Shown here: in pieces, positions 658 to 45,968 of the stretch
How positions within the stretch are numbered: the first letter of the stretch is position 1
Layout: each line of letters starts with the position of its first letter
NCBI GenBank assembly: GCA_025611195.1
Contig: GCA_025611195.1_4718.2
Direction: 5' to 3' (one strand)
Length of the DNA stretch: 64,000 nucleotides
Origin: a phage
The notes under the pieces: model-generated
Database searches by the model: none
What the model saw: only the letters and a program-made list of their open reading frames with translations
Told to the model about the DNA's origin: nothing
Made by a program: the position numbers and the translations under genes

Positions 658-1161
658 TTACTCGCTGACAACCTCAACGGAACTGGGATCGGCGATCAGC
701 GCACGGTCGGTAGAACAATTGAAGAAGACCATGCCAACACCATCGCCGTTCGAGTTCAGGGTTGAACTTACGTAAGACAATGTTGGTTTATTCATGCGGT
801 AGAAGCGTTCGTTGGTGGTGGTATTGAACCCCAGATCAACGTAGTCTTTCACCGTGGTGTACAGCTGGGTGGACTCGAAAACGGTTACCGGAGAGTCAAC
901 GGTAAACTGACTACCTTCGTCCACAATCAGAACCTTATCGTTCCAGATTTCAGTGGTTGAGAACTTCGGTTTCCAGTGTTCGAATTCCTGGGTTGCTCCC
1001 CAGCAGGAATACACAGCGAGATCGCTGTTCTTCTCAACCGGCTTCAAACCCACCAGTTGTGTCAGGCCTTTATCCAGATTCGGTAAGCCTTCCAGTGTAG
1101 CACACCCACCCAGAGAAAGTACCATCAACATACCGAGAATAATCGCGCAAAGTTTCTTCAT
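658..1161 (-). CDS. predicted lipoprotein
   Basis: N-terminus MKKLCAIILGMLMVLSLGGC has a signal peptide and lipobox (LGGC). AAGGAAA Shine-Dalgarno before ATG. Lies just downstream of the tail fibre and its chaperone. Confidence 0.7.
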   Translation of the reverse strand: MKKLCAIILGMLMVLSLGGCATLEGLPNLDKGLTQLVGLKPVEKNSDLAVYSCWGATQEFEHWKPKFSTTEIWNDKVLIVDEGSQFTVDSPVTVFESTQLYTTVKDYVDLGFNTTTNERFYRMNKPTLSYVSSTLNSNGDGVGMVFFNCSTDRALIADPSSVEVVSE

Positions 1162-7948: not shown

Positions 7949-7966
7949 AAGCACTCCAAAGTTCAT

Positions 7967-12564: not shown

Positions 12565-13143
12565 TTAGTAAGGAATCAGATCGTTAAGCTTTTCTTCTTC
12601 GATGACAAAGAAGTTGTTCTGGTCGTCTAAATCTGTTAACAGGACTTGTCCGACAGTAAAGCACGTGCCACCCTTCTTAGGCATCCATACCGGCTCATTC
12701 GTTACCTTATCGGGATACCATTTGAAACGATTGGTATCTAAGAAGAACGCTGCTTTGTTCGCTTTATCCGTTGAATGATAACTAACCAATGCAGGCCATT
12801 CAATCCAGGTATTTGTGCACGGCACATGTAAAGGATACCATGCACGCCAGCGTTTGCCTGGCTTGTTAGGATCAACCCAATACTCGGCAGTCAATACAGC
12901 ATCTTTATAATGTTTCTGTATTAACATTTCGAGCACAAGCTCATTACCCTTTGGTGAATCTAAAGTCACTTCAGCCATATAAAGGGATTTAGGTAATCCA
13001 GACTGTTTTGCGGGTGGTATTACGACACCGGTAACCAACGGTCTGCTCGGCTTACGCTTCTGTTCTTTCCGATGTGTGTAAAGGAATAGCCCGATAGCTG
13101 CGGCAACAAGTATAATAAACAACACTACCTTAATCCAATTCAT
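12565..13143 (-). CDS. membrane-anchored protein
   Basis: N-terminal hydrophobic helix (NWIKVVLFIILVAAAIGLFLY) followed by basic residues. ATGA overlap with the upstream gene. Confidence 0.6.
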   Translation of the reverse strand: MNWIKVVLFIILVAAAIGLFLYTHRKEQKRKPSRPLVTGVVIPPAKQSGLPKSLYMAEVTLDSPKGNELVLEMLIQKHYKDAVLTAEYWVDPNKPGKRWRAWYPLHVPCTNTWIEWPALVSYHSTDKANKAAFFLDTNRFKWYPDKVTNEPVWMPKKGGTCFTVGQVLLTDLDDQNNFFVIEEEKLNDLIPY

Positions 13144-13889
13144 TCGTCAATATCTCCTTCTACAAACAGAGTCAATTTGATTTCAGGATCATAGAACATA
13201 GTAATCACACCATCTTGCTCTACTGAACGTTGCGCTGTCCATATTAACTGTTCATCCCGAATATCAAATTTATGCCGCTCATCACTCACCACGGCTTCCG
13301 CATCAACGTAATGGTAAACATCACCGAGAGGATTCTCAATCCAGCCGCGTACCATCAAACGTTCTTTTTGTTTACGTGTAAAGAAGCGATAAGGATCTTC
13401 GCACGTGCGCCATACATCCCCGTTCCCGCTGACCAGCTCATCATAAACTTTAGAGAGTTCGTCAGGTACCGGAATCAAAATGTTATCTTGATAGTTCGAC
13501 CAGAAACGACGTACATCTTGGATCAGCTCATCGTCCTGCAGTTTGATTACCGCGTCACTATGATCGATTTTAACAGTATCGATATCAAGACGGGTAAACG
13601 GAAGAGCGTCTAGGTTTACCGCAGCGACATCGATCCGATCATGATGAACATAAACCCACCCATCAAACCACCGGTAACCATCAGCTTGATATAGCGTTGT
13701 GTGGTATCTGACGACGTTGATGTCTTCAAACGATTCTAATAAGGCTTTAGCTGCTAAAAGCGGTGAAAAGTTCTTTGATTGTCCTGGTTTACGTATCTCT
13801 TCTTTGATGAACAATTTACCAAGCAGTGGGTGTTCGATAACAAAACCACAGGAAAGCATGATGCTTCCTTGATAGCGAGGTTCTTGCAT
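13140..13889 (-). CDS. hypothetical protein
   Basis: 249-aa ORF with GAGGAATAGG before ATG. Confidence 0.55.
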   Translation of the reverse strand: MQEPRYQGSIMLSCGFVIEHPLLGKLFIKEEIRKPGQSKNFSPLLAAKALLESFEDINVVRYHTTLYQADGYRWFDGWVYVHHDRIDVAAVNLDALPFTRLDIDTVKIDHSDAVIKLQDDELIQDVRRFWSNYQDNILIPVPDELSKVYDELVSGNGDVWRTCEDPYRFFTRKQKERLMVRGWIENPLGDVYHYVDAEAVVSDERHKFDIRDEQLIWTAQRSVEQDGVITMFYDPEIKLTLFVEGDIDE

Positions 13890-14064
13890 TTCCTATTCCT
13901 CAAACAAATGATTGTCTTTTACGCGACACGATTACAAGTACACAGGTTACTGAATTTCTGTAAGAGTTAATTTTCGTAAACTAAAAGAAAATGTATCCGT
14001 GTTTCCTGGTTCTTCCCCTCCACAGCCTCAGGAAGAGAAGAACCGTTTGCTAAGTTGTTATATA

Positions 14065-14313
14065 TTAAAATGCATTGATTGGGCTGTTCAATGCTTTATC
14101 ACGGATTTGAATCGCCGCCAGCATTGCTTTCTGGTACGAATCGTAAGCATCAACAGAAACAGTCGTATCAACCAATTCCTTTAATGCTGATTCAGCCGCT
14201 TTTACGCGGACGCGGAACTTGGTGATTGCGTTATCTTTGTTACGATAAACCGTGATGTGGTGCAGCGGTTGAACTTTGGTTTTAACGGATTTAGTTGCTT
14301 TGATCGTTTTCAT
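14065..14313 (-). CDS. hypothetical small protein
   Basis: 82-aa ORF with AAGGAAA Shine-Dalgarno; preceded by the stem-loop/TTATGC element. Confidence 0.5.
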   Translation of the reverse strand: MKTIKATKSVKTKVQPLHHITVYRNKDNAITKFRVRVKAAESALKELVDTTVSVDAYDSYQKAMLAAIQIRDKALNSPINAF

Positions 14314-14360
14314 GATGATTTCCTTCTTTATTAGGATGATTACATTTAGTCAGTTTAACA

Positions 14361-14392
14361 GCATAAACCCTTCCCGCGTAAGGCAGGAAGGG
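14361..14392 (-). promoter_or_regulatory. stem-loop CCCTTCC/GGAAGGG followed on the minus strand by TTTATGCTG
   Basis: Inverted repeat 14368..14374 / 14386..14392 between the stop of 14407..14904 and the start of 14065..14313; TTTATGCTGT read on the minus strand (plus 14358..14367). Confidence 0.5.
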
Positions 14393-14406
14393 CATACGGA
14401 TTTGTT

Positions 14407-14904
14407 TTACGCGTGTCGTCGTTTACCAAAGAAAATGTGATTGTCTACCACGGTGATATTGGTAGCGTGTTTTCTGAAATGTTTAGGGCGAAGATGTTTC
14501 GCGTTAAAGAATACGGCTCCTCGTGTTGGGTCGGCTTTATGGTAAGCCGCAATGTCAGTATAACGTAATGTTGCGACCTCTCGTGCTATCGCTCTTGCCC
14601 GCTCAAAAGCGGCATGATCGCGTATGACAATTCGTTGTTGTCTTGCCCAGGGGAATTGACCTCTTTGCAGTACGACGTCTCTGACGTTCGTAGGGAATCG
14701 GTAGTCCATAGATCGATTATGTATTAAAAACGCCACGGAGTATTGCCCTTTTACAGATTCGCCTCTGGCTTCCATATACACAGCGCATGCGACGATTTCT
14801 TTCCGGCAATCGATTCTAGGTCCTGCGTTCACCGATGCTTGACTTAACGGTGCGATAAGCAACATAACAAGCCCTAAAACCAACGTGTGTAAAATACCTT
14901 GCAT
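14407..14904 (-). CDS. secreted cell-wall hydrolase, SleB/Hydrolase_2 family (candidate endolysin)
   Basis: IVACAVYMEARGESVKGQYSVAFLIHNR matches the SleB-type cell-wall hydrolase signature. Start moved to ATG 14904, giving a signal-peptide-like N-terminus MQGILHTLVLGLVMLLIAPLSQASV. Confidence 0.75.
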   Translation of the reverse strand: MQGILHTLVLGLVMLLIAPLSQASVNAGPRIDCRKEIVACAVYMEARGESVKGQYSVAFLIHNRSMDYRFPTNVRDVVLQRGQFPWARQQRIVIRDHAAFERARAIAREVATLRYTDIAAYHKADPTRGAVFFNAKHLRPKHFRKHATNITVVDNHIFFGKRRHA

Positions 14905-14974
14905 CTTAATTAACCTCACGATAAGGTGCTGTCCACTGGCGTCTTGATAACGCATCCCGTCTATCGGGTTGTTC

Positions 14975-15140
14975 TATTCAGCGGGCAGCAGGTTAGCGTC
15001 AGATGTTTGCCCGACATCCACGACAGAAATAAACGGTACTGAAAATGCGGTCTCCTCTGGTTTGGCAATAAACATAACGTTGGATAACAGAACCCATTTC
15101 CCGCATCCAACGCGGTAAAGGTGTACATCGTTTGAATTCA
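14975..15140 (-). CDS. possible small ORF (55 aa)
   Basis: Open frame MNSNDVHLYRVGCGKWVLL... in the gap between the hydrolase and 15159..15461. Weak Shine-Dalgarno; below the ORF-track size cutoff. Confidence 0.25.
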
Positions 15141-15158
15141 TATAGTTTCTCAAAGATG

Positions 15159-15461
15159 TTAACCTCTACCGTCGAGCCACAAGTTGTATTTCTCACGAGC
15201 GTCGGGATCACGATAGATGCGACGATACCTTAATTCCGGTAATAATCCGGTTCGCACTAACTCATCCGTTAACTTTCTACGACGTTCTACGCCGTTATGG
15301 ATACGACGTAACTCACGAAAGTTAAGCGGTGTTTGTTTCATTAGAACCCCCATTACGATCGGGCGATGATCAATTTCATACAGCGATAATACACCACGTA
15401 TTTCATCTAATACCCGCTCGCGATCGATTAGTATTCGATCATGATATTTTAATTGTTCCAT
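15159..15461 (-). CDS. hypothetical protein
   Basis: 100-aa ORF directly downstream of the holin-like gene. Confidence 0.5.
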   Translation of the reverse strand: MEQLKYHDRILIDRERVLDEIRGVLSLYEIDHRPIVMGVLMKQTPLNFRELRRIHNGVERRRKLTDELVRTGLLPELRYRRIYRDPDAREKYNLWLDGRG

Positions 15462-15487
15462 AACAGTTGCTCTCGTTTCAGGGGGAG

Positions 15488-15691
15488 TTAAGTATTGTGT
15501 TTATTCCTACCTACATTCCTCAACAGTGTAACGATAACGAATACCGCTACCATCAAGAAGACGAACCATAACCCCACGTTAATTCGGACTGCTGGTTCAT
15601 CTACCATGAAGAACATCATCCCACAAAAACCAATTACCATCCATGCTAAAACCATCCCCGTTAATCCCCGTAGTAGCATATGTCCCATCAT
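15488..15691 (-). CDS. small two-TM membrane protein (holin-like)
   Basis: Start moved to ATG 15691 (AAGGAG upstream). 67 aa with two hydrophobic helices and a charged C-terminus (RNVGRNKHNT). Lies next to the SleB-type hydrolase. Confidence 0.5.
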   Translation of the reverse strand: MMGHMLLRGLTGMVLAWMVIGFCGMMFFMVDEPAVRINVGLWFVFLMVAVFVIVTLLRNVGRNKHNT

Positions 15692-15701
15692 GAACTCCTT
15701 C

Positions 15702-15872
15702 TTACTTCTTCTGATAGAGCGATGATTCAAATTTTAGAAACACCGCTAACGCGAGTGCGAGTAATAACGCACGTACCCACATACCTCCTTGACAACTGTT
15801 GTACAACATAAAGACCAGAGCGATGCCGCCCATATGTAGGCGGCACTTATCGAACAGTGTTGGTTTATACAT
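15702..15872 (-). CDS. possible small membrane ORF (56 aa)
   Basis: Frame MYKPTLFDK...MWVRALLLALALAVFLKFESSLYQKK is hydrophobic and ends just before the holin-like Shine-Dalgarno. No clear Shine-Dalgarno of its own. Confidence 0.25.
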   Translation of the reverse strand: MYKPTLFDKCRLHMGGIALVFMLYNSCQGGMWVRALLLALALAVFLKFESSLYQKK

Positions 15873-16074
15873 AGGAGATTAAACGTTGAATGATTTTTAC
15901 TTTGCCTTTACCCGGACCTTTCTTGCGACGATTCAACAGACGGATACGGTTTCCAATTACGGAATCGCCATCATAATCAGCCTGGAACTGTGATAAAAAA
16001 GCAGGTTGTACCCGGTCGACACCAGGATTGCTATAGAAACGATTGAAACTTAAAAGATGGTTAGTTGGAATCAT
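15865..16074 (-). CDS. small basic protein with KKGPGKGK motif
   Basis: Start moved to ATG 16074 (AAGGA upstream). C-terminus IGNRIRLLNRRKKGPGKGKVKII resembles three small proteins at 33866..34431. Confidence 0.4.
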   Translation of the reverse strand: MIPTNHLLSFNRFYSNPGVDRVQPAFLSQFQADYDGDSVIGNRIRLLNRRKKGPGKGKVKIIQRLISYV

Positions 16075-16092
16075 TGTATTGTCCTTATTCAA

Positions 16093-16443
16093 TTATTTAC
16101 CCAGATAGAGGTATTCGCCACCCTGAATAACACCGGTTGATGGGTCAACCAGTATGCGAACCCGCGCGTAGGTCTTGAAAGAGGGGTTGAAAACTTCGAA
16201 GTCAGCCACTTTCAATTTCACGCTGGGATTGATTGGATTCTTAACTCCTGGAAGTTCTTTCGGTAATCCGAAGTCGACTCCATATTCTTCAAGGTCTGCT
16301 GGTGTCATGCTCTCCATGGCCATGTAGATTGCTTTTGCTTTATCGTAAACCTCTGGGCTATCCAGCAACCCAGCCTGCGCTGAACCGACAACACTACCGA
16401 ACAGAATAGCAACAGCAACAAACAATTTAGTTAACGTTTTCAT
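16093..16443 (-). CDS. small secreted protein
   Basis: Signal peptide MKTLTKLFVAVAILFGSVVGSAQA with an AQA-G cleavage-type site. Confidence 0.6.
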   Translation of the reverse strand: MKTLTKLFVAVAILFGSVVGSAQAGLLDSPEVYDKAKAIYMAMESMTPADLEEYGVDFGLPKELPGVKNPINPSVKLKVADFEVFNPSFKTYARVRILVDPSTGVIQGGEYLYLGK

Positions 16444-16479
16444 GATATTTTCCTCGAAAGTAAAATGTTACAATACCTA

Positions 16480-16902
16480 TTAACGTACGGCTGCTACGCT
16501 GTTAGCGCATGCCTGAATATCATCGGTATTTACGATGATGGTTTCGTTAAACGCACGAATACGCGCACGACGGGCTTCTTTAAGGCTGGCGATTGCATTA
16601 GCAGCTTGATCTGTATTCGCAAGGCTAATAACCGGGATCAAACGCATATCCGGACTGCAGATATTCAATGCCTGGTATACACGTCCATTGATTCCTACGG
16701 TATCAGACATCGGATAGTGCGCGCGACATTGAAATTGACCCATGACAACAAGCGAACGATCGGAGATACCAATCTGATAACGACCGTCTTCGCTGTAGGT
16801 ATAGCAGTTATTCCCACGAGCCATCCAGTTAGCTTGCGCTTGTGCACTAACAAAAGCCAGGGTAGCGACGATAGCGAATGCGATATTTTTGAACAGTTTC
16901 AT
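16480..16902 (-). CDS. small secreted protein
   Basis: Start moved to ATG 16902 (AAGGAT upstream). Signal peptide MKLFKNIAFAIVATLAFVSAQAQA. Confidence 0.6.
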   Translation of the reverse strand: MKLFKNIAFAIVATLAFVSAQAQANWMARGNNCYTYSEDGRYQIGISDRSLVVMGQFQCRAHYPMSDTVGINGRVYQALNICSPDMRLIPVISLANTDQAANAIASLKEARRARIRAFNETIIVNTDDIQACANSVAAVR

Positions 16903-16960
16903 GATAAAGATCCTTATTGAAATAAAATCGGTATAAAGCCCCCCATTTAGGGGGACCTGA

Positions 16961-17278
16961 TTAGTTTGCACTTAAGAAATGACCCAGAACCGTTACGATT
17001 GGAAACAGTCCCGTAACCGTATTATCGCCCGAAAACATCATCTTTGAGTCGTTAACGGTGATGAAACGGATGTCGGTTGCGGATCCGTCGATAGCGACAA
17101 AACGCATCGAGTTTGGTGGAAGATCCTCAACAACTTCCACGAGGTGTTCACGATTTTCAAAGGCTTCTTTAACACGACGCATGAAACGAATCAATGTTCC
17201 TTCAGCGTCGGCTTCCAAATGACCTAAGATATCGCGATTATTGCGAATAGCGAATACAGTCATTTTAAACATACACAT
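16961..17278 (-). CDS. hypothetical protein
   Basis: 105-aa ORF with AAGAGGA before ATG; preceded by the TATATTAC-containing element. Confidence 0.5.
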   Translation of the reverse strand: MCMFKMTVFAIRNNRDILGHLEADAEGTLIRFMRRVKEAFENREHLVEVVEDLPPNSMRFVAIDGSATDIRFITVNDSKMMFSGDNTVTGLFPIVTVLGHFLSAN

Positions 17279-17319
17279 CTTGACATCCTCTTATATTGGA
17301 TTGCTTGCTAATAATTCAA

Positions 17320-17368
17320 GGTGAAGCTGATTACTGCATTGCTTCACCTAGGTAATATAGCCGTGAAA
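17320..17368 (-). promoter_or_regulatory. candidate early-type promoter: TTTCACGGCTATATTAC followed by 8-bp stem-loop
   Basis: Minus strand reads TTTCACGGCTATATTAC (plus 17352..17368), then hairpin GGTGAAGC...GCTTCACC (17320..17348), about 73 nt upstream of ATG 17278. The same 17-mer recurs at 45952..45968 and, as a variant, at 63985..64000. Confidence 0.5.
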
Positions 17369-17386
17369 ATTAATGCGTTAATTCAT

Positions 17387-18340
17387 TCACGTCCTTGCTT
17401 TATAGGGTTGGATCTCATTGATACGTTTAACCACAACCTCAGGGAAAAGTTTGAGGATTTCGTCAGGTGGTGTCGTACCTTCTGTCCAACGATAACGTTC
17501 AACCTTCTCGATGCGTGGACTCCCTCCGACGTCAGCGATACGAAAGATACAGGCGATGCCTAAATCAAAACACACGCTGTAAATATCTTCCGTGCCCCCT
17601 TTATCAGCAAGTATTTTCGCAAAATGCTCGTTATCAGGAAGAATGGCTAAATTACGTATACACCAAACGTTATTACCCATTTCTTCAAGTTTTGGGTAGG
17701 TTAAAGTGTGTCCGTATTGTGTTAACCATCGATGATTTTCTAGGTAGAAGTCCTTATCCCCTGGCCGGTAACCCAATATCACTCTGGTGTAGAAGAGATT
17801 GGGCATGTCGAGCAGTTCTTGAATCGTTGGACCGGTATACTCCCAGAGACAGATTTGTTTGCGGTCTATATCGTAATCTGTGACGTTACTCACCTCCCAA
17901 CTTATCGTAAGTTCGTCAACAACATGCCAACCGAAAGTGTGTTCGCCGCCAAGCAGATTAACAATAGCTGATATCTCATGCTTGTCAAATACCCCCAAAT
18001 TACACGGTGGCTGCATCGTACGTAATGGTTCCCACAACACACTGTAATCATAGAGCAAATGGCGACATAAACTTTTTGTTAAGGGTGTATGTTCAGTAAA
18101 CAGTGGAAGAATCACCGTATCTAACAGTGGACGTAATGGATGGTTGTCAGGTGGTAGAGGAGAAACCAGACGACCTCCTTCTTTAGGGTAATCAAGACCA
18201 AACCCGTAACGCTCCGAAATGAGTGCGATCAGCACTTTTGCTACGCGGTTACGCAACATGCGATGGATATCATCACTGTAACTGAATTTAGGTCTATTAC
18301 CGCAAACGAAGGTGATGTATCTAGGCGTTAGTTCAGCCAT
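17387..18340 (-). CDS. hypothetical protein
   Basis: 317-aa ORF; no motif recognised. Confidence 0.55.
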   Translation of the reverse strand: MAELTPRYITFVCGNRPKFSYSDDIHRMLRNRVAKVLIALISERYGFGLDYPKEGGRLVSPLPPDNHPLRPLLDTVILPLFTEHTPLTKSLCRHLLYDYSVLWEPLRTMQPPCNLGVFDKHEISAIVNLLGGEHTFGWHVVDELTISWEVSNVTDYDIDRKQICLWEYTGPTIQELLDMPNLFYTRVILGYRPGDKDFYLENHRWLTQYGHTLTYPKLEEMGNNVWCIRNLAILPDNEHFAKILADKGGTEDIYSVCFDLGIACIFRIADVGGSPRIEKVERYRWTEGTTPPDEILKLFPEVVVKRINEIQPYKART

Positions 18341-18349
18341 GGTCTTTCC

Positions 18350-18796
18350 TTAATCCAAATAGTACGTGATGGATAGGTCTTTTCCATCGAACACGATATC
18401 CGTGCAGTCATGGATTGTCGGCAACACCATTTTTGCCGCTACTGGAACATACGCCTGCAACTCCATGAGGTTGTCCATACGGAATGCACGGCGCACCATC
18501 AACGGTGTTAGCGTAAACGTTACGCTGACGTTACCGCCCTGAGTCAAGTGCATTATCGCATGCCCGTGATCGCACCAACAATGGTTTTCGATCCATCCGG
18601 TGTAAATCAGAATGTTTTTATCTTCGTCGTAATAAGCAATACCGGTCTGCTTTAAACGACTGGTAAATCGAGAAGCTTGCTCGTAGCCCGCACGCAACAT
18701 TCGAGCAACCAGTCGGGTATTGTTAGCAATTCGATTCTGTTCGTTGGTTTTTGTGGTTTTGAAAAGTTCGATACGTTCTGCTTTTGTAATTTGCAT
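18350..18796 (-). CDS. hypothetical protein
   Basis: 148-aa ORF. Confidence 0.5.
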   Translation of the reverse strand: MQITKAERIELFKTTKTNEQNRIANNTRLVARMLRAGYEQASRFTSRLKQTGIAYYDEDKNILIYTGWIENHCWCDHGHAIMHLTQGGNVSVTFTLTPLMVRRAFRMDNLMELQAYVPVAAKMVLPTIHDCTDIVFDGKDLSITYYLD

Positions 18797-18798
18797 GA

Positions 18799-19215
18799 TT
18801 ACTGTCCTAATGAATTGCGTTTAAATAATTGGATGTATGGGGTACCGAATAAAGGGTTGTATGACTGTATTTGGTTCTCCTCTGACTCGTAATACTCGAT
18901 AGGCCACGATACTGGTTTAGGTAGACGATCTAATGCTTGCAACACAGCAAGTTTAACTCTACTACTTTCAACCGGAAATGGGAGTGCCGTTGACGAACAG
19001 AATACTCGTGTTCGATGTAGGTAAATGAGACGCCGTTGCAGCTTAGATAAACGCCTACGCTTGATTAAGAAACCCGTTACATGGCAATCGGGATGATCGC
19101 AGTGATACCGTATACTATCGAAATACACCTCTTCTCTTCTAACAACGAGATACTTTATCGCTTGCATGAAAGAGTAGCGGCGTAATTCTCCATTAGCCAA
19201 CTTAACACGAATCAT
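18799..19215 (-). CDS. hypothetical protein
   Basis: 138-aa ORF with Cys/His cluster (YHCDHPDCH). Confidence 0.45.
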   Translation of the reverse strand: MIRVKLANGELRRYSFMQAIKYLVVRREEVYFDSIRYHCDHPDCHVTGFLIKRRRLSKLQRRLIYLHRTRVFCSSTALPFPVESSRVKLAVLQALDRLPKPVSWPIEYYESEENQIQSYNPLFGTPYIQLFKRNSLGQ

Positions 19216-19814
19216 TACTTAGGTTCCAGTATTGGTCCGAACAACCAGAATGTCAGACGCTGGTAAACCTGTTCGATGACGGCGGCTTCTGTTTGCTCTT
19301 CTAGTGCTTTCCCTTTCTTATGTTGTATTTCTGGCGGGATGTCTCCGCTGTAAACATACTCTGTTGAGAAGTCCCACGCCAACCGTTTACCGAAAGTGGG
19401 TAAGAACACCTCTTCGAATCGGAACGCTTTCGAATTCCAATGAAGCAGCTGATCGGATTCAACATGTAAAGCTTTATTACGTTTGCTTGGCATGTTTCCG
19501 AAGTACTGAACGATAGCTGATTTCATAACCCGATCGACGAAGTCTTTGGCTTCGGCCTCATCGAGGGGAGGCAAGCGATGCGACAGATTCAACTTACGTT
19601 GTTCGATATCGATCTTACGCATTGCTTTAATCAAATCACTAGGGACGATTTTACCTTTATGTCCTTCCTGTCGGTGTACGAAACACCCCTGGAATAGCAC
19701 GCAAAGTTCTTGAGGTGCGGTACTTTCCATTCGTCCGTAAGCAACGATCACCGAACGTCGACGGTCAATAACTTCACGGATAAACCGCGGCTCAGTAATA
19801 CTCACCACTGTCAT
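19215..19814 (-). CDS. hypothetical protein
   Basis: 199-aa ORF. Confidence 0.5.
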   Translation of the reverse strand: MTVVSITEPRFIREVIDRRRSVIVAYGRMESTAPQELCVLFQGCFVHRQEGHKGKIVPSDLIKAMRKIDIEQRKLNLSHRLPPLDEAEAKDFVDRVMKSAIVQYFGNMPSKRNKALHVESDQLLHWNSKAFRFEEVFLPTFGKRLAWDFSTEYVYSGDIPPEIQHKKGKALEEQTEAAVIEQVYQRLTFWLFGPILEPK

Positions 19815-19858
19815 TTAAAGCCCTCTTTATCTTTTTCCATTTCTCTTTACATAACCAA

Positions 19859-20545
19859 TTAAGACGTCGCCATCTTATCTTCCAGAGACTTCTTCGGTAA
19901 ACCATGGATAACTCCTTCCGGGGTTAAGAACACACAGTCTGGATTCTGCGTTCGTGAGCGGTCGTCTGGACTGTTCAACGAGAACAGCAACGCAGAAATA
20001 CCTTTCGTCCGATTTAATGCCGCTACGATCACATCAAGCTGTCGCAGCGCATCCGACACCGTTCGATGAGGAACAATACGTGACTGTTTGAAGCTGGCTA
20101 ACCGCCAAGTCTCGAACAAACAACGTAGTTTAAACACGTCGGACGGAATAGCAGTAGATCCCTGTTCGATAACCTCAACACGATCAGCTTCAGGATAACC
20201 TACAGCAACCGCACTAAAGTGTCTTACCCCATTATGAAAATCATCGATAGATGCTTCGGCGTATTTACATACCGTACCAGAAACGACCATCACTTTTGCT
20301 AAACCGCGATAATTGATCGTCAATGGAATACGAAATACGCGCAAAGCATGTTCTGGATTTAATGAGACGTCGTTAACCTTTGTTGCGGTCAACTTACCAC
20401 GCTCGTAACGTGCGGTGAACGGCAGCCCGTCATAAACGGGATTAATCACAACGCCCCCTGGGGAGGCGTTAGCGTTAAGATGGACATTAAGCCAATCGGA
20501 TACTTCCTGTCTACTAGTTACGATTAACATAAAACGGTCCTCCAT
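19859..20545 (-). CDS. hypothetical protein
   Basis: Start moved to ATG 20545 (AAAGGAAAAG upstream), which removes the overlap with the methyltransferase gene. Confidence 0.5.
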   Translation of the reverse strand: MEDRFMLIVTSRQEVSDWLNVHLNANASPGGVVINPVYDGLPFTARYERGKLTATKVNDVSLNPEHALRVFRIPLTINYRGLAKVMVVSGTVCKYAEASIDDFHNGVRHFSAVAVGYPEADRVEVIEQGSTAIPSDVFKLRCLFETWRLASFKQSRIVPHRTVSDALRQLDVIVAALNRTKGISALLFSLNSPDDRSRTQNPDCVFLTPEGVIHGLPKKSLEDKMATS

Positions 20546-20555
20546 TTCTTTTCCT

Positions 20556-21206
20556 TTATTCATGACGAGTATCTTCCAAATCATCCCTTTGTTTTGTAAA
20601 TTCTGATTGCTTGCGATAAACCGTCCATGAATCGTATATGCCGTGAAAGTTCAAATGACGTGCATTTAAGTTAACGGTGAATTCTTCCACAGAGGAGAAA
20701 TCCGAACGAAGCATCGAATGGAAGGCGTCATCTCCGGTGCAGCCCCCGTATCCCTCACCCTGATAGATCAAAAGCTGATGTGGTTGAATACGCGCGGCAA
20801 CCAACGCAGCTTGTGGTTCGTCGTAAGGTGGCCATGACAGTAAAATAACATCGTACTGTGAAAGATCGATGTTTGTGTAGTCGACCTGCTGAATGTCCTC
20901 GATAAACGGATGGGGATGTACTTTAATATCGTACGCGGTAACATCCTCTACACCGAGTTTACGCAGGACGTAAGTCAGGTAACCTGTCCCACAACCCAAG
21001 TCAGCGACGCGTCGCCCGTAACAGATGTTCGCTAACTGGAGCGCGGTATCCATAGTTAACAACGACCATCCAACGCGTTGTGTGTATTCTTCACGTACAT
21101 CCCATTGTTGATGGAACGTCATGGGTTCTATGATATTAGCAAGCTGCTGGTACGGCAACGGCATTTTGGTTTCGCCTTGCGTGAGTAAAGCAATAACATC
21201 GTTCAT
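20556..21206 (-). CDS. SAM-dependent methyltransferase (Rossmann fold), substrate unknown
   Basis: Motif I VADLGCGTGY, then about 45 aa later ILLSWPPY, resembling the (D/N/S)PPY motif IV of amino-methyltransferases. Start moved to ATG 21206 (AAGGAAAC upstream). Confidence 0.65.
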   Translation of the reverse strand: MNDVIALLTQGETKMPLPYQQLANIIEPMTFHQQWDVREEYTQRVGWSLLTMDTALQLANICYGRRVADLGCGTGYLTYVLRKLGVEDVTAYDIKVHPHPFIEDIQQVDYTNIDLSQYDVILLSWPPYDEPQAALVAARIQPHQLLIYQGEGYGGCTGDDAFHSMLRSDFSSVEEFTVNLNARHLNFHGIYDSWTVYRKQSEFTKQRDDLEDTRHE

Positions 21207-21223
21207 TTTGTTTCCTTTTATCA

Positions 21224-21249
21224 GCATAAACCCTCCCATACCGGGAGGG
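21224..21249 (-). promoter_or_regulatory. stem-loop CCCTCCC-ATACC-GGGAGGG followed on the minus strand by TTTATGCTG
   Basis: Perfect 7-bp stem at 21231..21249 just after the stop of 21255..21683; TTTATGC at 21224..21230 (minus), 15 nt before the methyltransferase Shine-Dalgarno. Confidence 0.55.
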
Positions 21250-21254
21250 CACGA

Positions 21255-21683
21255 TTATTCATTTTCAATAACTTTAAGATTCGGTGTACCGAGCGTTTTC
21301 TTCACCAACGCCTCAGCAATGCGTTTCTCGATGAAATCGGTCGCATTGCTTCCGTCTATCGTACGCATATCACCACGGAAATTGTTGAAGACCATAAACA
21401 AGTCACACCCGTCGATAGGTATCGCAAGATCGTAACTGACTTGTGATGCGGTGAAATGGACGCCAACGACAACGGCGGGAACGAATTCAACCGCCATGTT
21501 ATCTCCTTCTTCTCCGGTTCCGAATGGAAGTTCAACACGATCGCCGATAGAGAATTGAGTGACATCATTAATTGCGTTCGTTAATGCAATTCGTTGCATG
21601 TTAGCGATATTTTCATTATTCGCACCACAAGGTAGATCCAGGACTTCTTCCAATGTGAAGAATTTACGATCGAACCAGCTCAT
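21255..21683 (-). CDS. hypothetical protein
   Basis: 142-aa ORF. Confidence 0.5.
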   Translation of the reverse strand: MSWFDRKFFTLEEVLDLPCGANNENIANMQRIALTNAINDVTQFSIGDRVELPFGTGEEGDNMAVEFVPAVVVGVHFTASQVSYDLAIPIDGCDLFMVFNNFRGDMRTIDGSNATDFIEKRIAEALVKKTLGTPNLKVIENE

Positions 21684-21684
21684 G

Positions 21685-22218
21685 TTAATCTCCTTTGTGT
21701 TTTACGGACGATGTTAACCACGATGATCTTACAGTGAAACCCTCAGACTCGTAGAACGCCTGGGCTTCATCGTTATCGGCACGAACATCCAGGCCGATAG
21801 AATGCCCACCACATCGGTAAGCGATGTTACGTGCTTCATTCATCAAGGCGTGGCCGATCCCGCGTCCACGGTATTCCGGTTTTACAACAATCGATGTAAC
21901 ATCGTGAATGCCCATTTGGCTCTCTGTATTCACTTCCAAGAGGCCTACTGGTATCGAAGCGATGGCGTCGATCATAACGACCAACTTTGCGGTGTCCGGT
22001 AAACGCTTCTCTAATTCTAAGGCATCGTACTCGCGTTTTAAATCGGGGATATTCTCAAACATAAACGTGGTAGCCCATGCCTCTGATTCTACATCGTCGA
22101 GAATACGGTACAGCTCACGAATCTGTCGTTTATGCGGGTAAAGGTGTGGATCGGCAGCCGTTGAGGCGATAACGCAATAGAACGGCCGTTCATTAATAAC
22201 TACTGTTTTGATGCTCAC
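21685..22218 (-). CDS. GNAT-family N-acetyltransferase
   Basis: Acetyl-CoA binding motif VVKPEYRGRGIGHALMNEA and C-terminal AQAFYESEGF. Confidence 0.75.
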   Translation of the reverse strand: MSIKTVVINERPFYCVIASTAADPHLYPHKRQIRELYRILDDVESEAWATTFMFENIPDLKREYDALELEKRLPDTAKLVVMIDAIASIPVGLLEVNTESQMGIHDVTSIVVKPEYRGRGIGHALMNEARNIAYRCGGHSIGLDVRADNDEAQAFYESEGFTVRSSWLTSSVKHKGD

Positions 22219-22721
22219 GCTAAAATTCCCTCATTACCTAACAGTCGATTACGGTGACGTCGGTACATTTGACAAAGTGTTGTGATTTGATAAAGTTTGT
22301 TATAACGTAATTCGATACGTTTTTGCACCTCTTTCCATGAAAGTTTATCGTATTGCCGATAACGATGAATTTCATTCAACATACGAAGACGAGTAGGATC
22401 GGTATTCTTTATTGTTGTGAGCTTCACGCGTTGGTATCCACGCTGTAGTCCCGATTCAGAATACGTGACGCCAAACTCATCTTGAATGGTAGTAATTATC
22501 TCCCGCCATCGGCGCTTCTCGCCGTCACGTAAATGGACAACCCGCGATAAGATATCGTTCCGATTACGATGACTCAGTTTAATGTTAAGCATTGAAGCAA
22601 TCGCGCTGATTGCTCTCTGACTCCGCCCTAACGCTTCACCGATCTCTTTCGATGTCATGACGCCAGCGTTTCGGCGTATGAATGCGATTTCGGTTGTTGT
22701 GTATTCTTTACCTGCTGCCAT
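22215..22721 (-). CDS. Myb/GcrA-like HTH protein, tandem paralog 1
   Basis: Repeat YTTTEIAFIRRNAGVMTSKEIGEALGRSQRAISAIASML plus C-terminal W..I....EF......Y motif. ATGA overlap with the next gene. Confidence 0.6.
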   Translation of the reverse strand: MAAGKEYTTTEIAFIRRNAGVMTSKEIGEALGRSQRAISAIASMLNIKLSHRNRNDILSRVVHLRDGEKRRWREIITTIQDEFGVTYSESGLQRGYQRVKLTTIKNTDPTRLRMLNEIHRYRQYDKLSWKEVQKRIELRYNKLYQITTLCQMYRRHRNRLLGNEGILA

Positions 22722-23185
22722 TTTTTACCACGCGTGTTATAATAGTAACGCTGACAAAGATGTGTGTGATGGTACTCCCGTTTGAACTCGACATTGATAA
22801 TGCGAGTAACTTCTCTCCATCTGACCCCTTCATGTCGCAGTGCTGTGATACGGTCTGAAATTTTGCACCATTCATCTGGGTCGTATCGTCGCAGTTTATG
22901 GCGTCGTATTACGGAGGCGACACTCGCTCTCGATCGGCCAAGATGGTTTGACAGTTGTTTAACCGAGTATCTGTGGATATTGTCGCGAATATAGGAAATC
23001 TCGTTGTCCGTATATGCCTCATTGGTTCTTGACGAAGGGAACAACATATACAACTTATTCTTAATCGCGCTTTCTGTGCGTTGAAACACGGTAACCAGAT
23101 CACTAATCGGTGGTCTGGGTATCTGATCCGCGTAATTCTCGAGGCGTGAGAGTTCCTCATCTGTCCAGCGGCGGTACTTGCGCAT
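22655..23185 (-). CDS. Myb/GcrA-like HTH protein, tandem paralog 2
   Basis: Start moved to ATG 23185 (AAGGAG upstream). Repeats RRWTDEELSRL... and YTDNEISYIRDN...LSNHLGRSRASVASVIRRHKL. Confidence 0.7.
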   Translation of the reverse strand: MRKYRRWTDEELSRLENYADQIPRPPISDLVTVFQRTESAIKNKLYMLFPSSRTNEAYTDNEISYIRDNIHRYSVKQLSNHLGRSRASVASVIRRHKLRRYDPDEWCKISDRITALRHEGVRWREVTRIINVEFKREYHHTHLCQRYYYNTRGKKWQQVKNTQQPKSHSYAETLAS

Positions 23186-23660
23186 GGGCAACTCCTTTGT
23201 TTTTCGTGTAATAGCACCAACGTTGATACAACGCATGTTTATTCGTTGTAATCCCAAATTTAACAACAACGTCGTATGTGATAATATTCCAATTTTGGGT
23301 GACGTTAAGTCGTTCCGCGATAAACGCGATAATCGCTTCCCGTTCTTGCTTGGTTAACGCACGACGAATTCCATTAAGTCGTATAAACTGACGAACCGAG
23401 TCATACGAACGGTTTAAATCATACGCAATCTCCCGCAACGATTTTTGTCTGATTACAGACTTGATGTACGCACGTTCTTCTTCCGTATACGGTCGATGCT
23501 TCTGGCGTTGACGTATTCCCAAACGCCCCAGACACGCGTCGATGCTGGCGCGTGTTCGTCCTGCCTGTTGCGCGATTTCATCAATCGTCAGCGACGTGTT
23601 CAAGTACAGATGTGTAACATCTTTTAACTCATCGTTACGCCACGGCCGAGGTCGTCCCAT
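23157..23660 (-). CDS. Myb/GcrA-like HTH protein, tandem paralog 3
   Basis: RPWRNDELKDV...IDEIAQQAGRTRASIDACLGRL and YTEEERAYIKSV...IAYDLNRSYDSVRQFIRL. AAGAGGGA before ATG. Confidence 0.7.
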   Translation of the reverse strand: MGRPRPWRNDELKDVTHLYLNTSLTIDEIAQQAGRTRASIDACLGRLGIRQRQKHRPYTEEERAYIKSVIRQKSLREIAYDLNRSYDSVRQFIRLNGIRRALTKQEREAIIAFIAERLNVTQNWNIITYDVVVKFGITTNKHALYQRWCYYTKNKGVAHAQVPPLDR

Positions 23661-24138: not shown

Positions 24139-24151
24139 AACTAAGATTCTC

Positions 24152-24631: not shown

Positions 24632-27292
<2,661 letters not shown>

Positions 27293-45944: not shown

Positions 45945-45968
45945 CACGTAAGTAATATAGCCGTGAAA
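45945..45968 (-). promoter_or_regulatory. candidate early-type promoter: TTTCACGGCTATATTAC (second copy)
   Basis: Exact 17-mer shared with 17352..17368, minus orientation, about 56 nt upstream of ATG 45895, followed by the imperfect palindrome TTACGTGAGTAA. Lies in the divergent intergenic region 45896..46111. Confidence 0.5.

What the first reader, a model, noticed from the sequence alone, without database searches (positions are those of the whole stretch)
14407..16902. Envelope-targeted cluster: secreted SleB-type hydrolase, holin-like protein and two secreted proteins
A SleB/Hydrolase_2-family cell-wall hydrolase with a predicted signal peptide lies beside a two-TM holin-like ORF and one or two further tiny hydrophobic ORFs. 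Downstream are two small signal-peptide proteins (16093..16443, 16480..16902). This could be the lysis cassette with a Sec-exported endolysin. The secreted proteins could instead be periplasmic effectors or superinfection-exclusion factors. The TATATTAC element sits at 17352.
Basis: partly seen in the sequence, partly recalled or inferred. Interest (0 to 1): 0.5.

Follow-up and report, generated by a model that had tools for sequence, protein, structure and literature searches.

The report
Jumbo-phage envelope gene cluster, secreted hydrolase
In a relative of the nucleus-forming E. coli jumbo phage Goslar, a secreted cell-wall hydrolase of an already known type sits beside small membrane proteins and two secreted proteins; these may act in lysis but are not shown to, and the unexpected part is a 254-base stretch just upstream of the hydrolase that is almost invariant across related phages.

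Summary

- **Hydrolase.** It is Goslar gp098, already annotated "endolysin" (Pfam Hydrolase_2, E 2e-16). Its true start is 14904, giving 165 aa. It has a leucine-rich, cleavable-type signal sequence, as do the published SleB-like hydrolases of Vequintavirinae.
- **Membrane proteins.** The 2-TM ORF is gp101. A 56-aa membrane ORF (15702-15872) is real but is missing from the Goslar annotation.
- **Secreted proteins.** gp104 and gp103 are not spanins. gp104 has an IalB-like fold with four conserved cysteines; gp103 has a cystatin/PepSY-like fold. Together they form a gene pair that also occurs, sometimes fused into one protein, next to WYL regulators in CP4-57-type enterobacterial islands.
- **Transcription.** TATATTAC is part of a 16-nt promoter-like element that heads the gp105-gp099 operon. 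The hydrolase appears to be a separate unit.
- **Ultraconserved spacer.** The 254-nt spacer before the hydrolase has 3.5% variable columns across nine genomes, against 23.5% in the hydrolase itself. It folds so that the ribosome-binding site and the AUG are paired.

The lysis-cassette reading is only partly supported. Goslar has a second, soluble endolysin candidate (gp024), another holin-like protein (gp122), and no spanins that I could find.

The parts
17352..17367 (-). Promoter-like element TTCACGGCTATATTAC, 74 nt upstream of the gp105 start
   Evidence: Three exact copies in the window, all minus strand and intergenic. Five copies with at most one mismatch in 121 kb of Goslar. Invariant in all Goslar-like genomes, including the 80%-identical L032.
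17319..17349 (-). 9-bp stem-loop GGTGAAGC..GCTTCACC directly after the promoter-like element (probable 5' end hairpin of the transcript)
   Evidence: -13.5 kcal/mol, z -2.2. The stem is kept while the loop varies among genomes.
16961..17278 (-). gp105 homologue, 105 aa, soluble, unknown function; first gene of the operon
   Evidence: 15 syn/8 nonsyn against Goslar.
16480..16902 (-). gp104 homologue, 140 aa: Sec signal peptide (..SAQAQA|NW) plus an IalB-like beta-rich domain with 4 conserved Cys
16093..16443 (-). gp103 homologue, 116 aa: Sec signal peptide (..GSAQA|G) plus a cystatin/PepSY-like alpha+beta domain
15865..16074 (-). gp102 homologue, 69 aa, soluble, basic C-terminus, unknown function
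15702..15872 (-). 56-aa membrane protein gene not annotated in Goslar (MYKPTLFDKCRLHMGGIALVFMLYNS.QGGMWVRALLLALALAVFLKF...)
   Evidence: Intact in all genomes compared, including L032. Substitutions are mostly synonymous in this frame only. One strong TM segment and one short one.
15488..15691 (-). gp101 homologue, 63-67 aa, two TM segments, acidic loop, basic C-terminus (class-II-holin-like topology)
   Evidence: Hydropathy. Conserved in all genomes. No holin family match (Pfam Phage_holin_3_6 E 0.077, no PHROG). No relatives outside Goslar-like phages.
15159..15461 (-). gp099 homologue, 100 aa, arginine-rich, two very divergent alleles; last gene of the operon. Goslar's 4-TM gp100 is absent here (indel 15346-15510).
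15066..15113 (-). Hairpin CGTTGGAT..ATCCAACG followed by a U-rich tail: terminator-like end of the gp105-gp099 unit
   Evidence: -18.5 kcal/mol, followed by UUAUGUUUAUUG. Inferred, not mapped.
14905..15158 (-). Ultraconserved 254-nt spacer/leader upstream of the hydrolase
   Evidence: 9/254 variable columns in 9 genomes, against 23.5% (gp098), 27% (gp097), 39% (next spacer) and 44% (gp099 3' part). 1.2% divergent from L032, where gp098 is 16.9% divergent and the 11.3 kb compared is 80% identical. It is the most conserved 254-nt stretch of 27 kb compared with Goslar. No Rfam, tRNA, phage or E. coli match.
14890..14990 (-). Structured proximal leader: multibranch stem, a hairpin pairing the GAGG ribosome-binding site (14913-14927) and a hairpin pairing the AUG (14890-14908)
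   Evidence: -32.4 kcal/mol, z -3.7, 0 of 200 shuffles fold as well. The five variable positions here fall in loops or linkers, or keep a G-U pair.
14407..14904 (-). gp098 homologue, 165 aa: signal sequence MQGILHTLVLGLVMLLIAPLSQA|SV plus a Hydrolase_2 (SleB catalytic-domain family) murein hydrolase
   Evidence: PF07486 60.7 bits. PHROG 938 endolysin. SleB 4F55/4FET E 2e-4, with the query's YME aligned to SleB's YGE. Signal conserved in 9 genomes. Homologues in phages Arash and CR9 also carry signal peptides.
14367..14393 (-). Intrinsic terminator after the hydrolase (11-bp G+C-rich stem, then UUUAUGCUGUU)
   Evidence: -23.5 kcal/mol, z -5.2, 0 of 200 shuffles.

Best explanation
This is an envelope-directed region of a Goslar-like nucleus-forming jumbo phage. 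It appears to consist of two transcription units on the minus strand.

**Unit A (about 17367 to 15066).** It starts at a phage promoter-like element with a 5' hairpin. It encodes gp105, the periplasmic pair gp104 (IalB-like) and gp103 (cystatin/PepSY-like), gp102, an unannotated 56-aa membrane protein, the 2-TM protein gp101, and gp099. It ends at a terminator-like hairpin.

**Unit B (about 15060 to 14367).** It consists of an ultraconserved leader, the signal-peptide SleB-type hydrolase gp098, and a strong terminator.

**Most likely mechanism**
- gp098 is exported through Sec into the periplasm, as are its signal-peptide homologues in Vequintavirinae. There it acts as a murein-degrading lysis enzyme.
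- Because export bypasses the need for a large-hole holin, its amount and timing are controlled instead. The leader, which pairs the ribosome-binding site and the AUG, controls synthesis. Activity probably also depends on the energised membrane.
- gp101, possibly with the 56-aa protein, is the best local candidate for a small holin/pinholin-like trigger.
- gp104 and gp103 work together as a separate periplasmic module that is exchanged with enterobacterial integrative islands. It is not part of the lytic machinery proper.

**Shown:** gene content; family and fold assignments; export signals by simple sequence rules; the gp104-gp103 gene pair and its fusion; the conservation of the leader; the predicted hairpins.

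**Inferred:** transcription unit boundaries; Sec export and signal cleavage; a role in lysis; the regulatory role of the leader; holin function.
For: - **Hydrolase family and catalytic region:**
- **Signal sequence:** conserved in 9 genomes, with a Leu/Val/Ile/Met-rich h-region (12 of 17 residues), Pro at -5 and S-Q-A before the cleavage site.
- **Homologues:** those in phages Arash and CR9 have classical signal peptides. For Certrevirus CB7_83 the literature reports a signal peptide and toxicity in E. coli, and the CR3_087 homologue is implicated in lysis (PMC7344957).
- **gp101 topology:**
- **Enrichment of envelope proteins in this run of genes:**
- **Promoter-like element:**
- **Terminators and leader structure:**
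- **Ultraconservation of the leader:**
- **gp104/gp103 pair:** Rosetta-stone fusion P0012. The same gene order occurs in Salmonella and Kluyvera islands.
Against: - Goslar encodes a soluble GH108-type endolysin candidate (gp024) and a tail-associated lysozyme domain (gp204). gp098 therefore need not be the lysis enzyme.
- gp122 (window 27008-27292) looks at least as holin-like as gp101.
- gp101 and the 56-aa protein match no holin family.
- No spanin pair was found anywhere in the genome.
- The signal sequence lacks Lys/Arg in its n-region, so it could be an uncleaved anchor.
- No transcript data for Goslar were found in the literature searches I ran.
- The few substitutions in the leader give no real covariation: 5 unpaired, 2 wobble-kept, 2 broken.
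- The whole-leader fold z-score is only -1.9.
Confidence: 0.45

Rival explanations
1. The cluster is an accessory envelope-modifying region rather than a lysis cassette. On this reading gp024 is the true endolysin, perhaps with gp122 as holin. The secreted hydrolase remodels murein during infection, for example to allow the cell bulging seen around the phage nucleus (from memory, not checked) or to affect superinfecting phages. The gp104/gp103 pair and the small membrane proteins would be exclusion or host-takeover factors.
For: - A second, soluble endolysin candidate exists, as does another holin-like protein elsewhere.
- gp104/gp103 homologues sit in CP4-57-type islands beside WYL regulators, TIR, AbiGi and antirestriction genes.
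- Gene content is variable: gp100 and gp096 are present or absent, and gp099 has two alleles.
- The promoter-like element is shared with operons of nucleotide-metabolism-type genes such as gp159.
- In Vequintavirinae the SleB-like enzyme coexists with other murein hydrolases and is not in a lysis cassette.
Against: - The homologue CR3_087 has been implicated in lysis, and CB7_83 is toxic in E. coli.
- No defence or exclusion family match: PADLOC gives only E 0.013 for P0012.
- The hydrolase, its signal sequence and its leader are strictly conserved in every Goslar-like genome seen. That looks more like a core function than an accessory one.
Confidence: 0.3
2. The spacer is conserved because it encodes protein: one or two overlapping 55-codon ORFs (B: 14974..15141, MNSNDVHLYRVGCGKW...; A: 14961..15128, MYTFTALDAG...).
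For: Both frames are open in all nine genomes. Gene callers on ENA contigs call ORF B. Dual coding would constrain most positions.
Against: - Every base substitution inside the two ORFs is nonsynonymous in both frames. The only codon change scored synonymous (frame A, Goslar and L008) is the TAG-to-TGA stop change made by the 1-nt deletion at 14962.
- At the divergence of L032, about 15-20 synonymous changes would be expected in a 55-codon gene. None is seen.
- Ribosome-binding sites are weak or absent.
- No family match.
- Conservation extends beyond both ORFs, to 14856-15180.
Confidence: 0.15
3. The spacer is conserved at the DNA level, as a recombination linker that is repeatedly homogenised next to the hypervariable gp099/gp100 cassette, and has no function of its own.
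For: It borders the most mosaic spot of the region: two gp099 alleles about 38% apart, and the gp100 indel.
Against: It is equally conserved in genomes with either allele and in the 80%-identical L032. Gene conversion would have to reach all lineages yet stop precisely at the flanking genes. Other junctions, such as the gp096 indel, have no such block.
Confidence: 0.12
4. gp104 and gp103 are the spanin equivalents of this phage.
For: They are two adjacent exported proteins near a murein hydrolase, and no canonical spanins were found in the genome.
Against: - No lipobox and no membrane anchor after the AXA-type cleavage sites.
- Compact globular folds rather than extended coiled coils.
- Homologues and a fused form occur in bacterial islands that have no lysis genes.
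Confidence: 0.03

Closest known systems
Signal-peptide SleB-like hydrolases of Vequintavirinae and related phages (Certrevirus CB7_83, Cronobacter CR3_087/CR9 gp095, phiTE SleB; Salmonella phage Arash gp62c)
   Same: Same Pfam family (Hydrolase_2), 35-44% identity. N-terminal signal peptide (PMC7344957). They coexist with other murein hydrolases.
   Different: In those phages no holin-like genes flank the enzyme. Their signal peptides have a basic n-region, which gp098 lacks. No counterpart of the ultraconserved leader was found outside Goslar-like phages.
Bacillus spore cortex-lytic enzyme SleB (PDB 4F55, 4FET) with its partner YpeB
   Different: Not an orthologue: TIGR02869 scores 42.6 bits against a cut-off of 236.5. 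It lacks SleB's N-terminal peptidoglycan-binding domain. The gp103-YpeB resemblance is at the level of a common small fold only. gp103 relatives in bacteria are not next to hydrolases.
Exported endolysins: SAR endolysins with pinholins (P1 Lyz, phage 21 R/S21-68) and the signal-peptide endolysin Lys44 of Oenococcus phage fOg44 (from general knowledge)
   Same: The endolysin reaches the periplasm or wall through Sec before lysis. Only a small membrane-depolarising holin would then be needed. gp101 has the 2-TM topology of class II holins and pinholins.
   Different: The gp098 N-terminus is Leu/Val/Ile/Met-rich (12 of 17 h-region residues, only 3 Gly/Ala/Thr) and has an S-Q-A cleavage motif. It therefore looks like a cleavable signal or a firm anchor, not a releasable SAR domain. 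It has a different catalytic family. No function has been tested.
IalB (invasion-associated locus B) family, e.g. Bartonella henselae IalB, PDB 3DTD
   Different: No sequence-level match to any Pfam family, IalB included, at E <= 0.1. gp104 has 4 conserved cysteines and belongs to a distinct enterobacterial and phage family with variable C-terminal modules.
Uncharacterised secreted proteins of CP4-57-type integrative islands (336-aa 'hypothetical protein' P0012 of E. coli, Klebsiella and Enterobacter; 139-aa plus 109-aa pairs in Salmonella and Kluyvera)
   Same: These are true homologues. The gp104 domain and the gp103 domain occur in the same order, either as adjacent genes or fused.
   Different: Identity is only 25-42%. 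They lie in a bacterial island, downstream of a WYL regulator and upstream of DUF932/antirestriction/RadC/CbeA, rather than in a phage operon. Their function is equally unknown.
5'UTR-derived small RNAs of jumbo phages (phiKZ gp182 leader, 201phi2-1 sRNA005; PMC11512511)
   Same: A conserved, structured RNA element upstream of a late-type gene in Chimalliviridae.
   Different: Different gene, no sequence relationship, and no transcript evidence here. The conservation seen here is far stronger: about 99% where the surrounding DNA is about 80% identical.

Membership tests
Pfam Hydrolase_2 (PF07486; SleB/CwlJ catalytic domain) | Profile match above the curated gathering score over the whole domain | tested here: met
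   60.7 bits against a cut-off of 27, profile positions 1-100 of 100.
Pfam Hydrolase_2 (PF07486; SleB/CwlJ catalytic domain) | Conserved acidic catalytic residue in the N-terminal Y-x-E-(A/S)-R-G-E motif (catalytic role recalled from memory of the SleB structure papers) | tested here: met
   The query's AVYMEARGES aligns with SleB's AVYGESRGEP. The motif is invariant in 9 genomes.
SleB proper (NCBIfam TIGR02869 spore_SleB equivalog) | Score above the equivalog cut-off; N-terminal PG-binding domain | tested here: not met
   42.6 bits against a cut-off of 236.5. Only the C-terminal catalytic part aligns.
Sec-type cleavable signal peptide (gp103, gp104) | Basic n-region, uncharged hydrophobic h-region of 10-15 residues, small residues at -3/-1 | tested here: met
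   MKTLTK/LFVAVAILFGSVVG/SAQA|G and MKLFKN/IAFAIVATLAFV/SAQAQA|N. Simple rule-based check only; SignalP was not available.
Sec-type cleavable signal peptide (gp098) | Basic n-region, hydrophobic h-region, -3/-1 rule | tested here: inconclusive
   The h-region and S-Q-A|S with Pro at -5 are present and conserved. The n-region (MQGILH) has no Lys/Arg. Cleavage versus an uncleaved anchor cannot be decided here.
SAR (signal-anchor-release) endolysin | Weakly hydrophobic N-terminal TM domain rich in Gly/Ala/Ser/Thr | tested here: not met
   The h-region ILHTLVLGLVMLLIAPL has 12 of 17 Leu/Ile/Val/Met, and only 1 Gly, 1 Ala and 1 Thr.
Holin (class II / pinholin-like) for gp101 | Small size, two TM segments with N-in/C-in topology, charged C-terminus | tested here: met
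   63-67 aa. TM segments at 12-30 and 39-57, loop DEPAVR, C-terminus RNVGRNKHNT.
Holin (class II / pinholin-like) for gp101 | Membership of a described holin sequence family | tested here: not met
   Best match is Phage_holin_3_6 at E 0.077, 13.5 bits against a cut-off of 28.4. No PHROG or NCBIfam hit, and no tblastn hit outside Goslar.
Holin (class II / pinholin-like) for gp101 | Timed, lethal permeabilisation or depolarisation of the inner membrane | not testable with these tools
   Needs expression experiments.
Spanins (i-spanin/o-spanin or u-spanin) for gp104/gp103 | o-spanin lipobox with Cys; i-spanin N-terminal TM anchor and extended periplasmic coiled coil | tested here: not met
   No lipobox in either protein. 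The only lipobox ORF in the window is 658..1161. AXA cleavage sites. Compact globular models.
IalB family (PF06776) for gp104 | IalB fold | tested here: met
IalB family (PF06776) for gp104 | Sequence profile match | tested here: not met
   No Pfam hit at E <= 0.1 for gp104 or at E <= 0.01 for P0012.
PepSY / cystatin-like inhibitor domains for gp103 | Helix packed on a 4-stranded antiparallel sheet | tested here: met
PepSY / cystatin-like inhibitor domains for gp103 | Sequence family membership or inhibitory activity | tested here: not met
   No Pfam, NCBIfam or PHROG match. Activity is not testable here.
Known RNA families (Rfam 15) for the 254-nt leader | Covariance-model match | tested here: not met
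   No match at E <= 1 on either strand of 13800-17500. No tRNA or tmRNA.
Cis-regulatory structured leader (translational control) | Stable structure that pairs SD/AUG, supported by covariation | tested here: inconclusive
   For the proximal 101 nt, z is -3.7, and the SD and AUG each lie in a hairpin. There are only 9 variable columns: 5 unpaired, 2 wobble-kept, 2 broken. That is too little variation for covariation.

The most novel reading that the evidence does not exclude
The 254-nt ultraconserved spacer upstream of the secreted hydrolase could be a new cis-regulatory RNA: a ligand-, protein- or temperature-responsive leader that keeps the ribosome-binding site and start codon paired. It would gate synthesis of a Sec-exported murein hydrolase, and with it the timing of lysis, in nucleus-forming jumbo coliphages. 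The neighbouring gp104/gp103 pair would in addition represent a new periplasmic two-component module exchanged between jumbo phages and CP4-57-type islands.
Probability: 0.3. Interest if true: 0.7.

Novelty: new variant of a known kind. Interest (0 to 1): 0.45.

Why it matters
How Chimalliviridae (nucleus-forming jumbo phages) time and execute lysis is largely unknown. The Goslar annotation names no holin or spanin.

The hydrolase itself is ordinary: an annotated, known kind of signal-peptide SleB-like enzyme. Three things found around it are useful leads:

1. **A near-invariant, structured 254-nt leader.** It stays about 99% identical where the surrounding DNA is about 80% identical. It is a concrete, testable candidate for post-transcriptional control of an exported lytic enzyme.
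2. **A Rosetta-stone fusion linking gp104 and gp103.** It ties them into one functional module shared with widespread, uncharacterised genes of E. coli, Klebsiella and Salmonella integrative islands. Either system can therefore inform the other.
3. **A 16-nt promoter-like element and an unannotated membrane-protein gene.** Both improve the annotation of the Goslar reference genome, which is now used as an E. coli model for phage-nucleus biology.

Tried and rejected
- **Family scans.** Pfam, PHROGs, NCBIfam and PADLOC scans of gp097, gp099, gp101, gp102, the 56-aa ORF, gp103, gp104, gp105 and the two spacer ORFs gave nothing significant. The only hints were PDC-S11 at E 0.013 for P0012/P0043 and Phage_holin_3_6 at E 0.077 for gp101.
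- **tblastn against 50,697 phage records.** gp101, the 56-aa ORF, gp103 and gp104 hit only Goslar.
- **The spacer.** Rfam and ARAGORN found nothing. blastn against phages and 5,426 E. coli genomes found nothing beyond Goslar. It has no internal or genome-wide repeats.
- **TATATTAC as an 8-mer.** It is not enriched, and a full-text search for it returned only irrelevant papers. It became meaningful only as part of the 16-nt element. I could not verify from the library whether it corresponds to the phiKZ early-promoter consensus.
- **K-12 CP4-57 proteins YpjK, YfjS and YfjT.** They occupy the syntenic slot of P0012 but show no BLASTP similarity to gp103 or gp104.
- **The 182-aa form of the hydrolase, and a read-through fusion of spacer ORF B with gp098.** Both rejected, because 1-nt indels change the frame among relatives.
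- **SAR endolysin and spanin readings.** Rejected on composition and on the absence of a lipobox.
- **gp087/gp088 as a spanin pair.** Rejected: gp087 has no TM segment, and gp088 is a 167-aa globular lipoprotein.
- **YpeB-like partner idea for gp103.** It is a fold-level resemblance only, and the bacterial gp103 homologues are not linked to hydrolases.
- **Covariation analysis of the leader.** Too few substitutions.
- **AFDB50 fold search.** Not available.
- **Literature on Goslar lysis.** None of the hits examined for 'Goslar' with 'endolysin' said anything specific about Goslar lysis.

Full report
**Identity of the window.** Positions 13000-19000 match Escherichia phage vB_EcoM_Goslar (NC_048170, Goslarvirus, a nucleus-forming jumbo phage) at 92.7% identity over 95% of the query. 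All genes of the region lie on the minus strand. From the Goslar annotation and pairwise alignment the mapping is:

| Window coordinates | Goslar gene | Note |
|---|---|---|
| 14065-14313 | gp097 | |
| 14407-14904 | gp098 | annotated "endolysin", Hydrolase_2 |
| 15159-15461 | gp099 | |
| 15488-15691 | gp101 | |
| 15865-16074 | gp102 | |
| 16093-16443 | gp103 | |
| 16480-16902 | gp104 | |
| 16961-17278 | gp105 | |

Compared with Goslar, the window lacks gp096 (166 aa) and the 4-TM gp100 (123 aa). It also carries a very different allele of the first two thirds of gp099.

I collected eight further Goslar-like genomes or contigs:
- L005 from IMG/VR;
- L006, L007 and L008 from ENA/Logan;
- L027-L032 from metagenomes.

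L032 is the most divergent, at about 80% nucleotide identity over 11.3 kb.

The hydrolase matches Pfam Hydrolase_2 over the full profile (60.7 bits against a cut-off of 27) and PHROG 938 "endolysin". It also matches the solved SleB catalytic domains 4F55 and 4FET, with its AVYMEARGES aligned to SleB's AVYGESRGEP. It is not an orthologue of SleB: TIGR02869 scores 42.6 bits against a cut-off of 236.5.

The reported 182-aa ORF is too long. The 51 nt before ATG 14904 are put out of frame by single-base indels in relatives, and GAGG precedes that ATG. The protein therefore begins MQGILHTLVLGLVMLLIAPLSQA|SVNAG.

This N-terminus is conserved in all genomes. Its h-region is Leu/Ile/Val/Met-rich (12 of 17 residues), with Pro at -5 and S-Q-A before the putative cleavage site. 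It looks like a cleavable Sec signal or a firm anchor, not a Gly/Ala-rich SAR domain. Its n-region has no Lys/Arg, so I leave cleavage undecided.

The other elements:
- gp101 has two hydrophobic segments, an acidic loop and a basic tail.
- The 56-aa ORF 15702-15872 is not annotated in Goslar but is a real gene. It is intact in every genome including L032, and its substitutions are mostly synonymous in that frame only.
- gp103 and gp104 have textbook signal peptides and evolve under purifying selection.

A crude scan of the whole Goslar genome supports real clustering. Cleavable signal peptides turned up only in gp088 (a lipoprotein), gp098, gp103, gp104 and gp154. Small multi-TM proteins turned up only in gp100, gp101 and gp122. 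The concentration of exported and membrane proteins in this run of genes is far beyond chance.

**The secreted pair gp104/gp103.** Neither protein has relatives in 50,697 phage records apart from Goslar. A word-indexed search with gp104 found only Goslar-like copies.

A full HMMER scan with gp103 was more informative. It found small (108-111 aa) signal-peptide proteins of Salmonella, Citrobacter, Lelliottia and Kluyvera. It also found the C-terminus of a 336-aa "hypothetical protein" (P0012) that is nearly identical in E. coli, Klebsiella, Enterobacter, Raoultella and Serratia.

The first 140 residues of P0012 align end to end with gp104. The invariant positions are W26, C33, D39, G40, C59 and C82, and a fourth cysteine near the C-terminus is also shared. 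P0012 is therefore a Rosetta-stone fusion of the two phage proteins.

Relatives of P0012 keep the gp104-like module. They carry either the gp103-like domain, a different C-terminal domain (the 393-aa forms), or none (the 205-aa forms).

All of these genes lie in CP4-57-type integrative islands. They sit just downstream of a WYL (YfjR-like) regulator and upstream of DUF932, antirestriction, RadC, DUF987 and CbeA genes, sometimes beside TIR and AbiGi genes. In Salmonella and Kluyvera the unfused arrangement has the same order as in the phage: a gp104-like gene, plus a lipoprotein paralogue, followed by a gp103-like gene.

The structure predictions were good:

The YpeB link is attractive but rests on fold resemblance only, and the bacterial homologues are not next to hydrolases.

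The pair has no lipobox, no anchor and no coiled coil, so it is not a spanin pair. Its function remains unknown. From the fusion, the shared synteny and the conserved cysteines I conclude that it is a periplasmic two-part module moving between jumbo phages and enterobacterial islands.

**Is this the lysis cassette?**

Points in favour:
- A murein hydrolase lies next to membrane proteins with holin-like topology.
- Published data on homologues exist. Certrevirus CB7_83 has a signal peptide and is toxic in E. coli, and CR3_087 has been implicated in lysis (PMC7344957).
- The homologues in phages Arash and CR9 also start with classical signal peptides.

Points against:
- Goslar also encodes a soluble GH108-type "endolysin", gp024, among the structural genes, and a tail protein with a lysozyme domain, gp204.
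- gp122 (window 27008-27292) has two TM segments and a long, highly charged tail. It is at least as holin-like as gp101.
- gp101 and the 56-aa protein match no holin family.
- I found no spanin candidates in the genome.
- In the other phages the SleB-like enzyme is not flanked by holins.

I therefore rate the lysis-cassette reading as plausible but unproven.

**Transcription signals.**
- It has three exact copies in the window, all on the coding strand. They lie 74, 57 and 96 nt upstream of gp105, gp159 and gp175.
- Five copies with at most one mismatch occur in 121 kb of Goslar.
- Upstream of gp105 it is invariant in all relatives. A 9-bp hairpin follows it, whose loop varies while the stem is kept.
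- This looks like a phage RNA polymerase promoter heading the gp105-to-gp099 operon. I could not assign its temporal class.
- For comparison, phiKZ late promoters need only TATG at the start site (PMC4666361).

After gp099 there is a hairpin of -18.5 kcal/mol with a U-rich tail. After the hydrolase there is a strong terminator (-23.5 kcal/mol, z -5.2). The hydrolase therefore appears to be its own transcription unit.

**The unexpected finding: an ultraconserved leader.** The 254 nt between gp099 and the hydrolase show very little variation.
- They differ from Goslar by two substitutions and two single-base indels, against a background of about 8% divergence. This is the most conserved stretch of that length in the 27 kb compared.

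| Segment (nine genomes) | Variable columns |
|---|---|
| Spacer | 9 of 254 (3.5%) |
| gp098 | 23.5% |
| gp097 | 27% |
| Next spacer (gp098-gp097) | 39% |
| gp099 3' part | 44% |

- Against L032 the hydrolase is 16.9% divergent but the spacer only 1.2%. Conservation of at least 97% spans 14856-15180.
- The spacer matches no Rfam family, no tRNA, no other phage and no E. coli sequence, and it is not repeated in the genome.

Two overlapping 55-codon ORFs stay open in all genomes, and gene callers call one of them. Coding does not explain the conservation, for two reasons. Every base substitution inside them is nonsynonymous in both frames; the one codon change scored synonymous (frame A, Goslar and L008) is the stop-codon change made by the 1-nt deletion at 14962. 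And the synonymous changes expected at this divergence are absent.

The proximal 101 nt fold significantly better than shuffled controls (-32.4 kcal/mol, z -3.7). One hairpin pairs the GAGG ribosome-binding site and another pairs the AUG. The five variable positions in this part fall in loops or linkers, or keep a G-U pair.

Over the whole spacer, 5 variable columns are unpaired, 2 are kept by wobble pairing and 2 are broken. That is too little variation for a covariation test.

My preferred reading is a cis-regulatory leader that restrains translation of an exported, potentially self-lethal enzyme. 5'UTR-derived small RNAs are known in other jumbo phages (PMC11512511). The alternatives are dual coding and a recombination linker next to the mosaic gp099/gp100 spot.

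**Comparison with what is known, and novelty.**
- The hydrolase is a new member of a known kind: the signal-peptide SleB-like phage hydrolases. It is already annotated as an endolysin in the reference genome.
- The membrane proteins resemble class II holins in topology only.
- The gp104/gp103 pair is a previously unlinked family of unknown function, with a fold-level resemblance to IalB and to cystatin/PepSY domains.
- The ultraconserved leader has no described counterpart that I could find.

Overall I file the cluster as a new variant of a known kind, of moderate interest. The leader is the item most worth an experiment.

Noticed in passing
window 45952-45967 and 63985-64000 (minus strand): Two more exact copies of the promoter-like element TTCACGnnTATATTAC. 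They lie 57 nt upstream of the gp159 homologue (HD-domain protein) and 96 nt upstream of the gp175 homologue. The consensus extends to TTCACGGCTATATTACYTAnGTGA, and TTCAC..GTGAA forms a short inverted repeat around the TATATTAC core.
   Followed up: partly
window 27008-27292 (minus strand): Homologue of Goslar gp122: 94 aa, two TM segments and a long, highly charged C-terminal tail ([31 protein letters not shown]). It is a holin-like candidate outside the cluster, next to the NAD-dependent DNA ligase gene.
   Followed up: partly
window 658-1161 (minus strand): The only lipobox ORF in the window (MKKLCAIILGMLMVLSLGGC..., 167 aa; Goslar gp088), located beside the tail-fibre genes. It is globular and not spanin-like. 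It could be a surface-exclusion type lipoprotein.
   Followed up: partly
window 42722-43243 (minus strand): Homologue of Goslar gp154, 173 aa, with a classical signal peptide (MKKLFLAALFITASAHA|W). It is another secreted protein of unknown function.
   Followed up: no
window 12565-13143 (minus strand): Homologue of Goslar gp094, 192 aa, with a single N-terminal TM anchor followed by a basic stretch (type II membrane protein). It lies three genes downstream of the hydrolase.
   Followed up: no
window 13972-14003 and 15346-15510: Two presence/absence polymorphisms among Goslar-like phages. gp096 (166 aa) and the 4-TM gp100 (123 aa) are missing here and in L005/L031, but present in Goslar, L006 and L008 (L032 also has both). 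gp099 exists as two alleles that differ at about 38% of aligned nucleotides.
   Followed up: partly
window 22631-22755: The only other stretch at least 97% identical to the divergent genome L032 within 13231-24619. It covers the start of the gp115-like putative transcriptional regulator (MAAGKEYTTTEIAFIRRNAG...).
   Followed up: no
window 2273-4102 and 6206-7952: The tail-fibre region aligns to Goslar in many overlapping, repeated pieces at 65-82% identity, which points to internal repeats and hypervariability. About 1.7 kb (6206-7952) has no counterpart at the matching Goslar junction (about 103565).
   Followed up: no
L012:8001-9011, with L020-L024 (enterobacterial genomes): The gp104-like module is followed by interchangeable C-terminal domains in CP4-57-type islands: gp103-like, an unrelated roughly 140-aa domain, or none. 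It always sits directly after a WYL regulator. One weak PADLOC hit (PDC-S11, E 0.013) hints at a defence-island association.
   Followed up: partly
Goslar NC_048170 17700-18335 (outside the window): A second annotated endolysin, gp024 (GH108/COG3926 type, no signal peptide), lies among the virion structural genes. It matters for deciding which enzyme drives lysis.
   Followed up: partly
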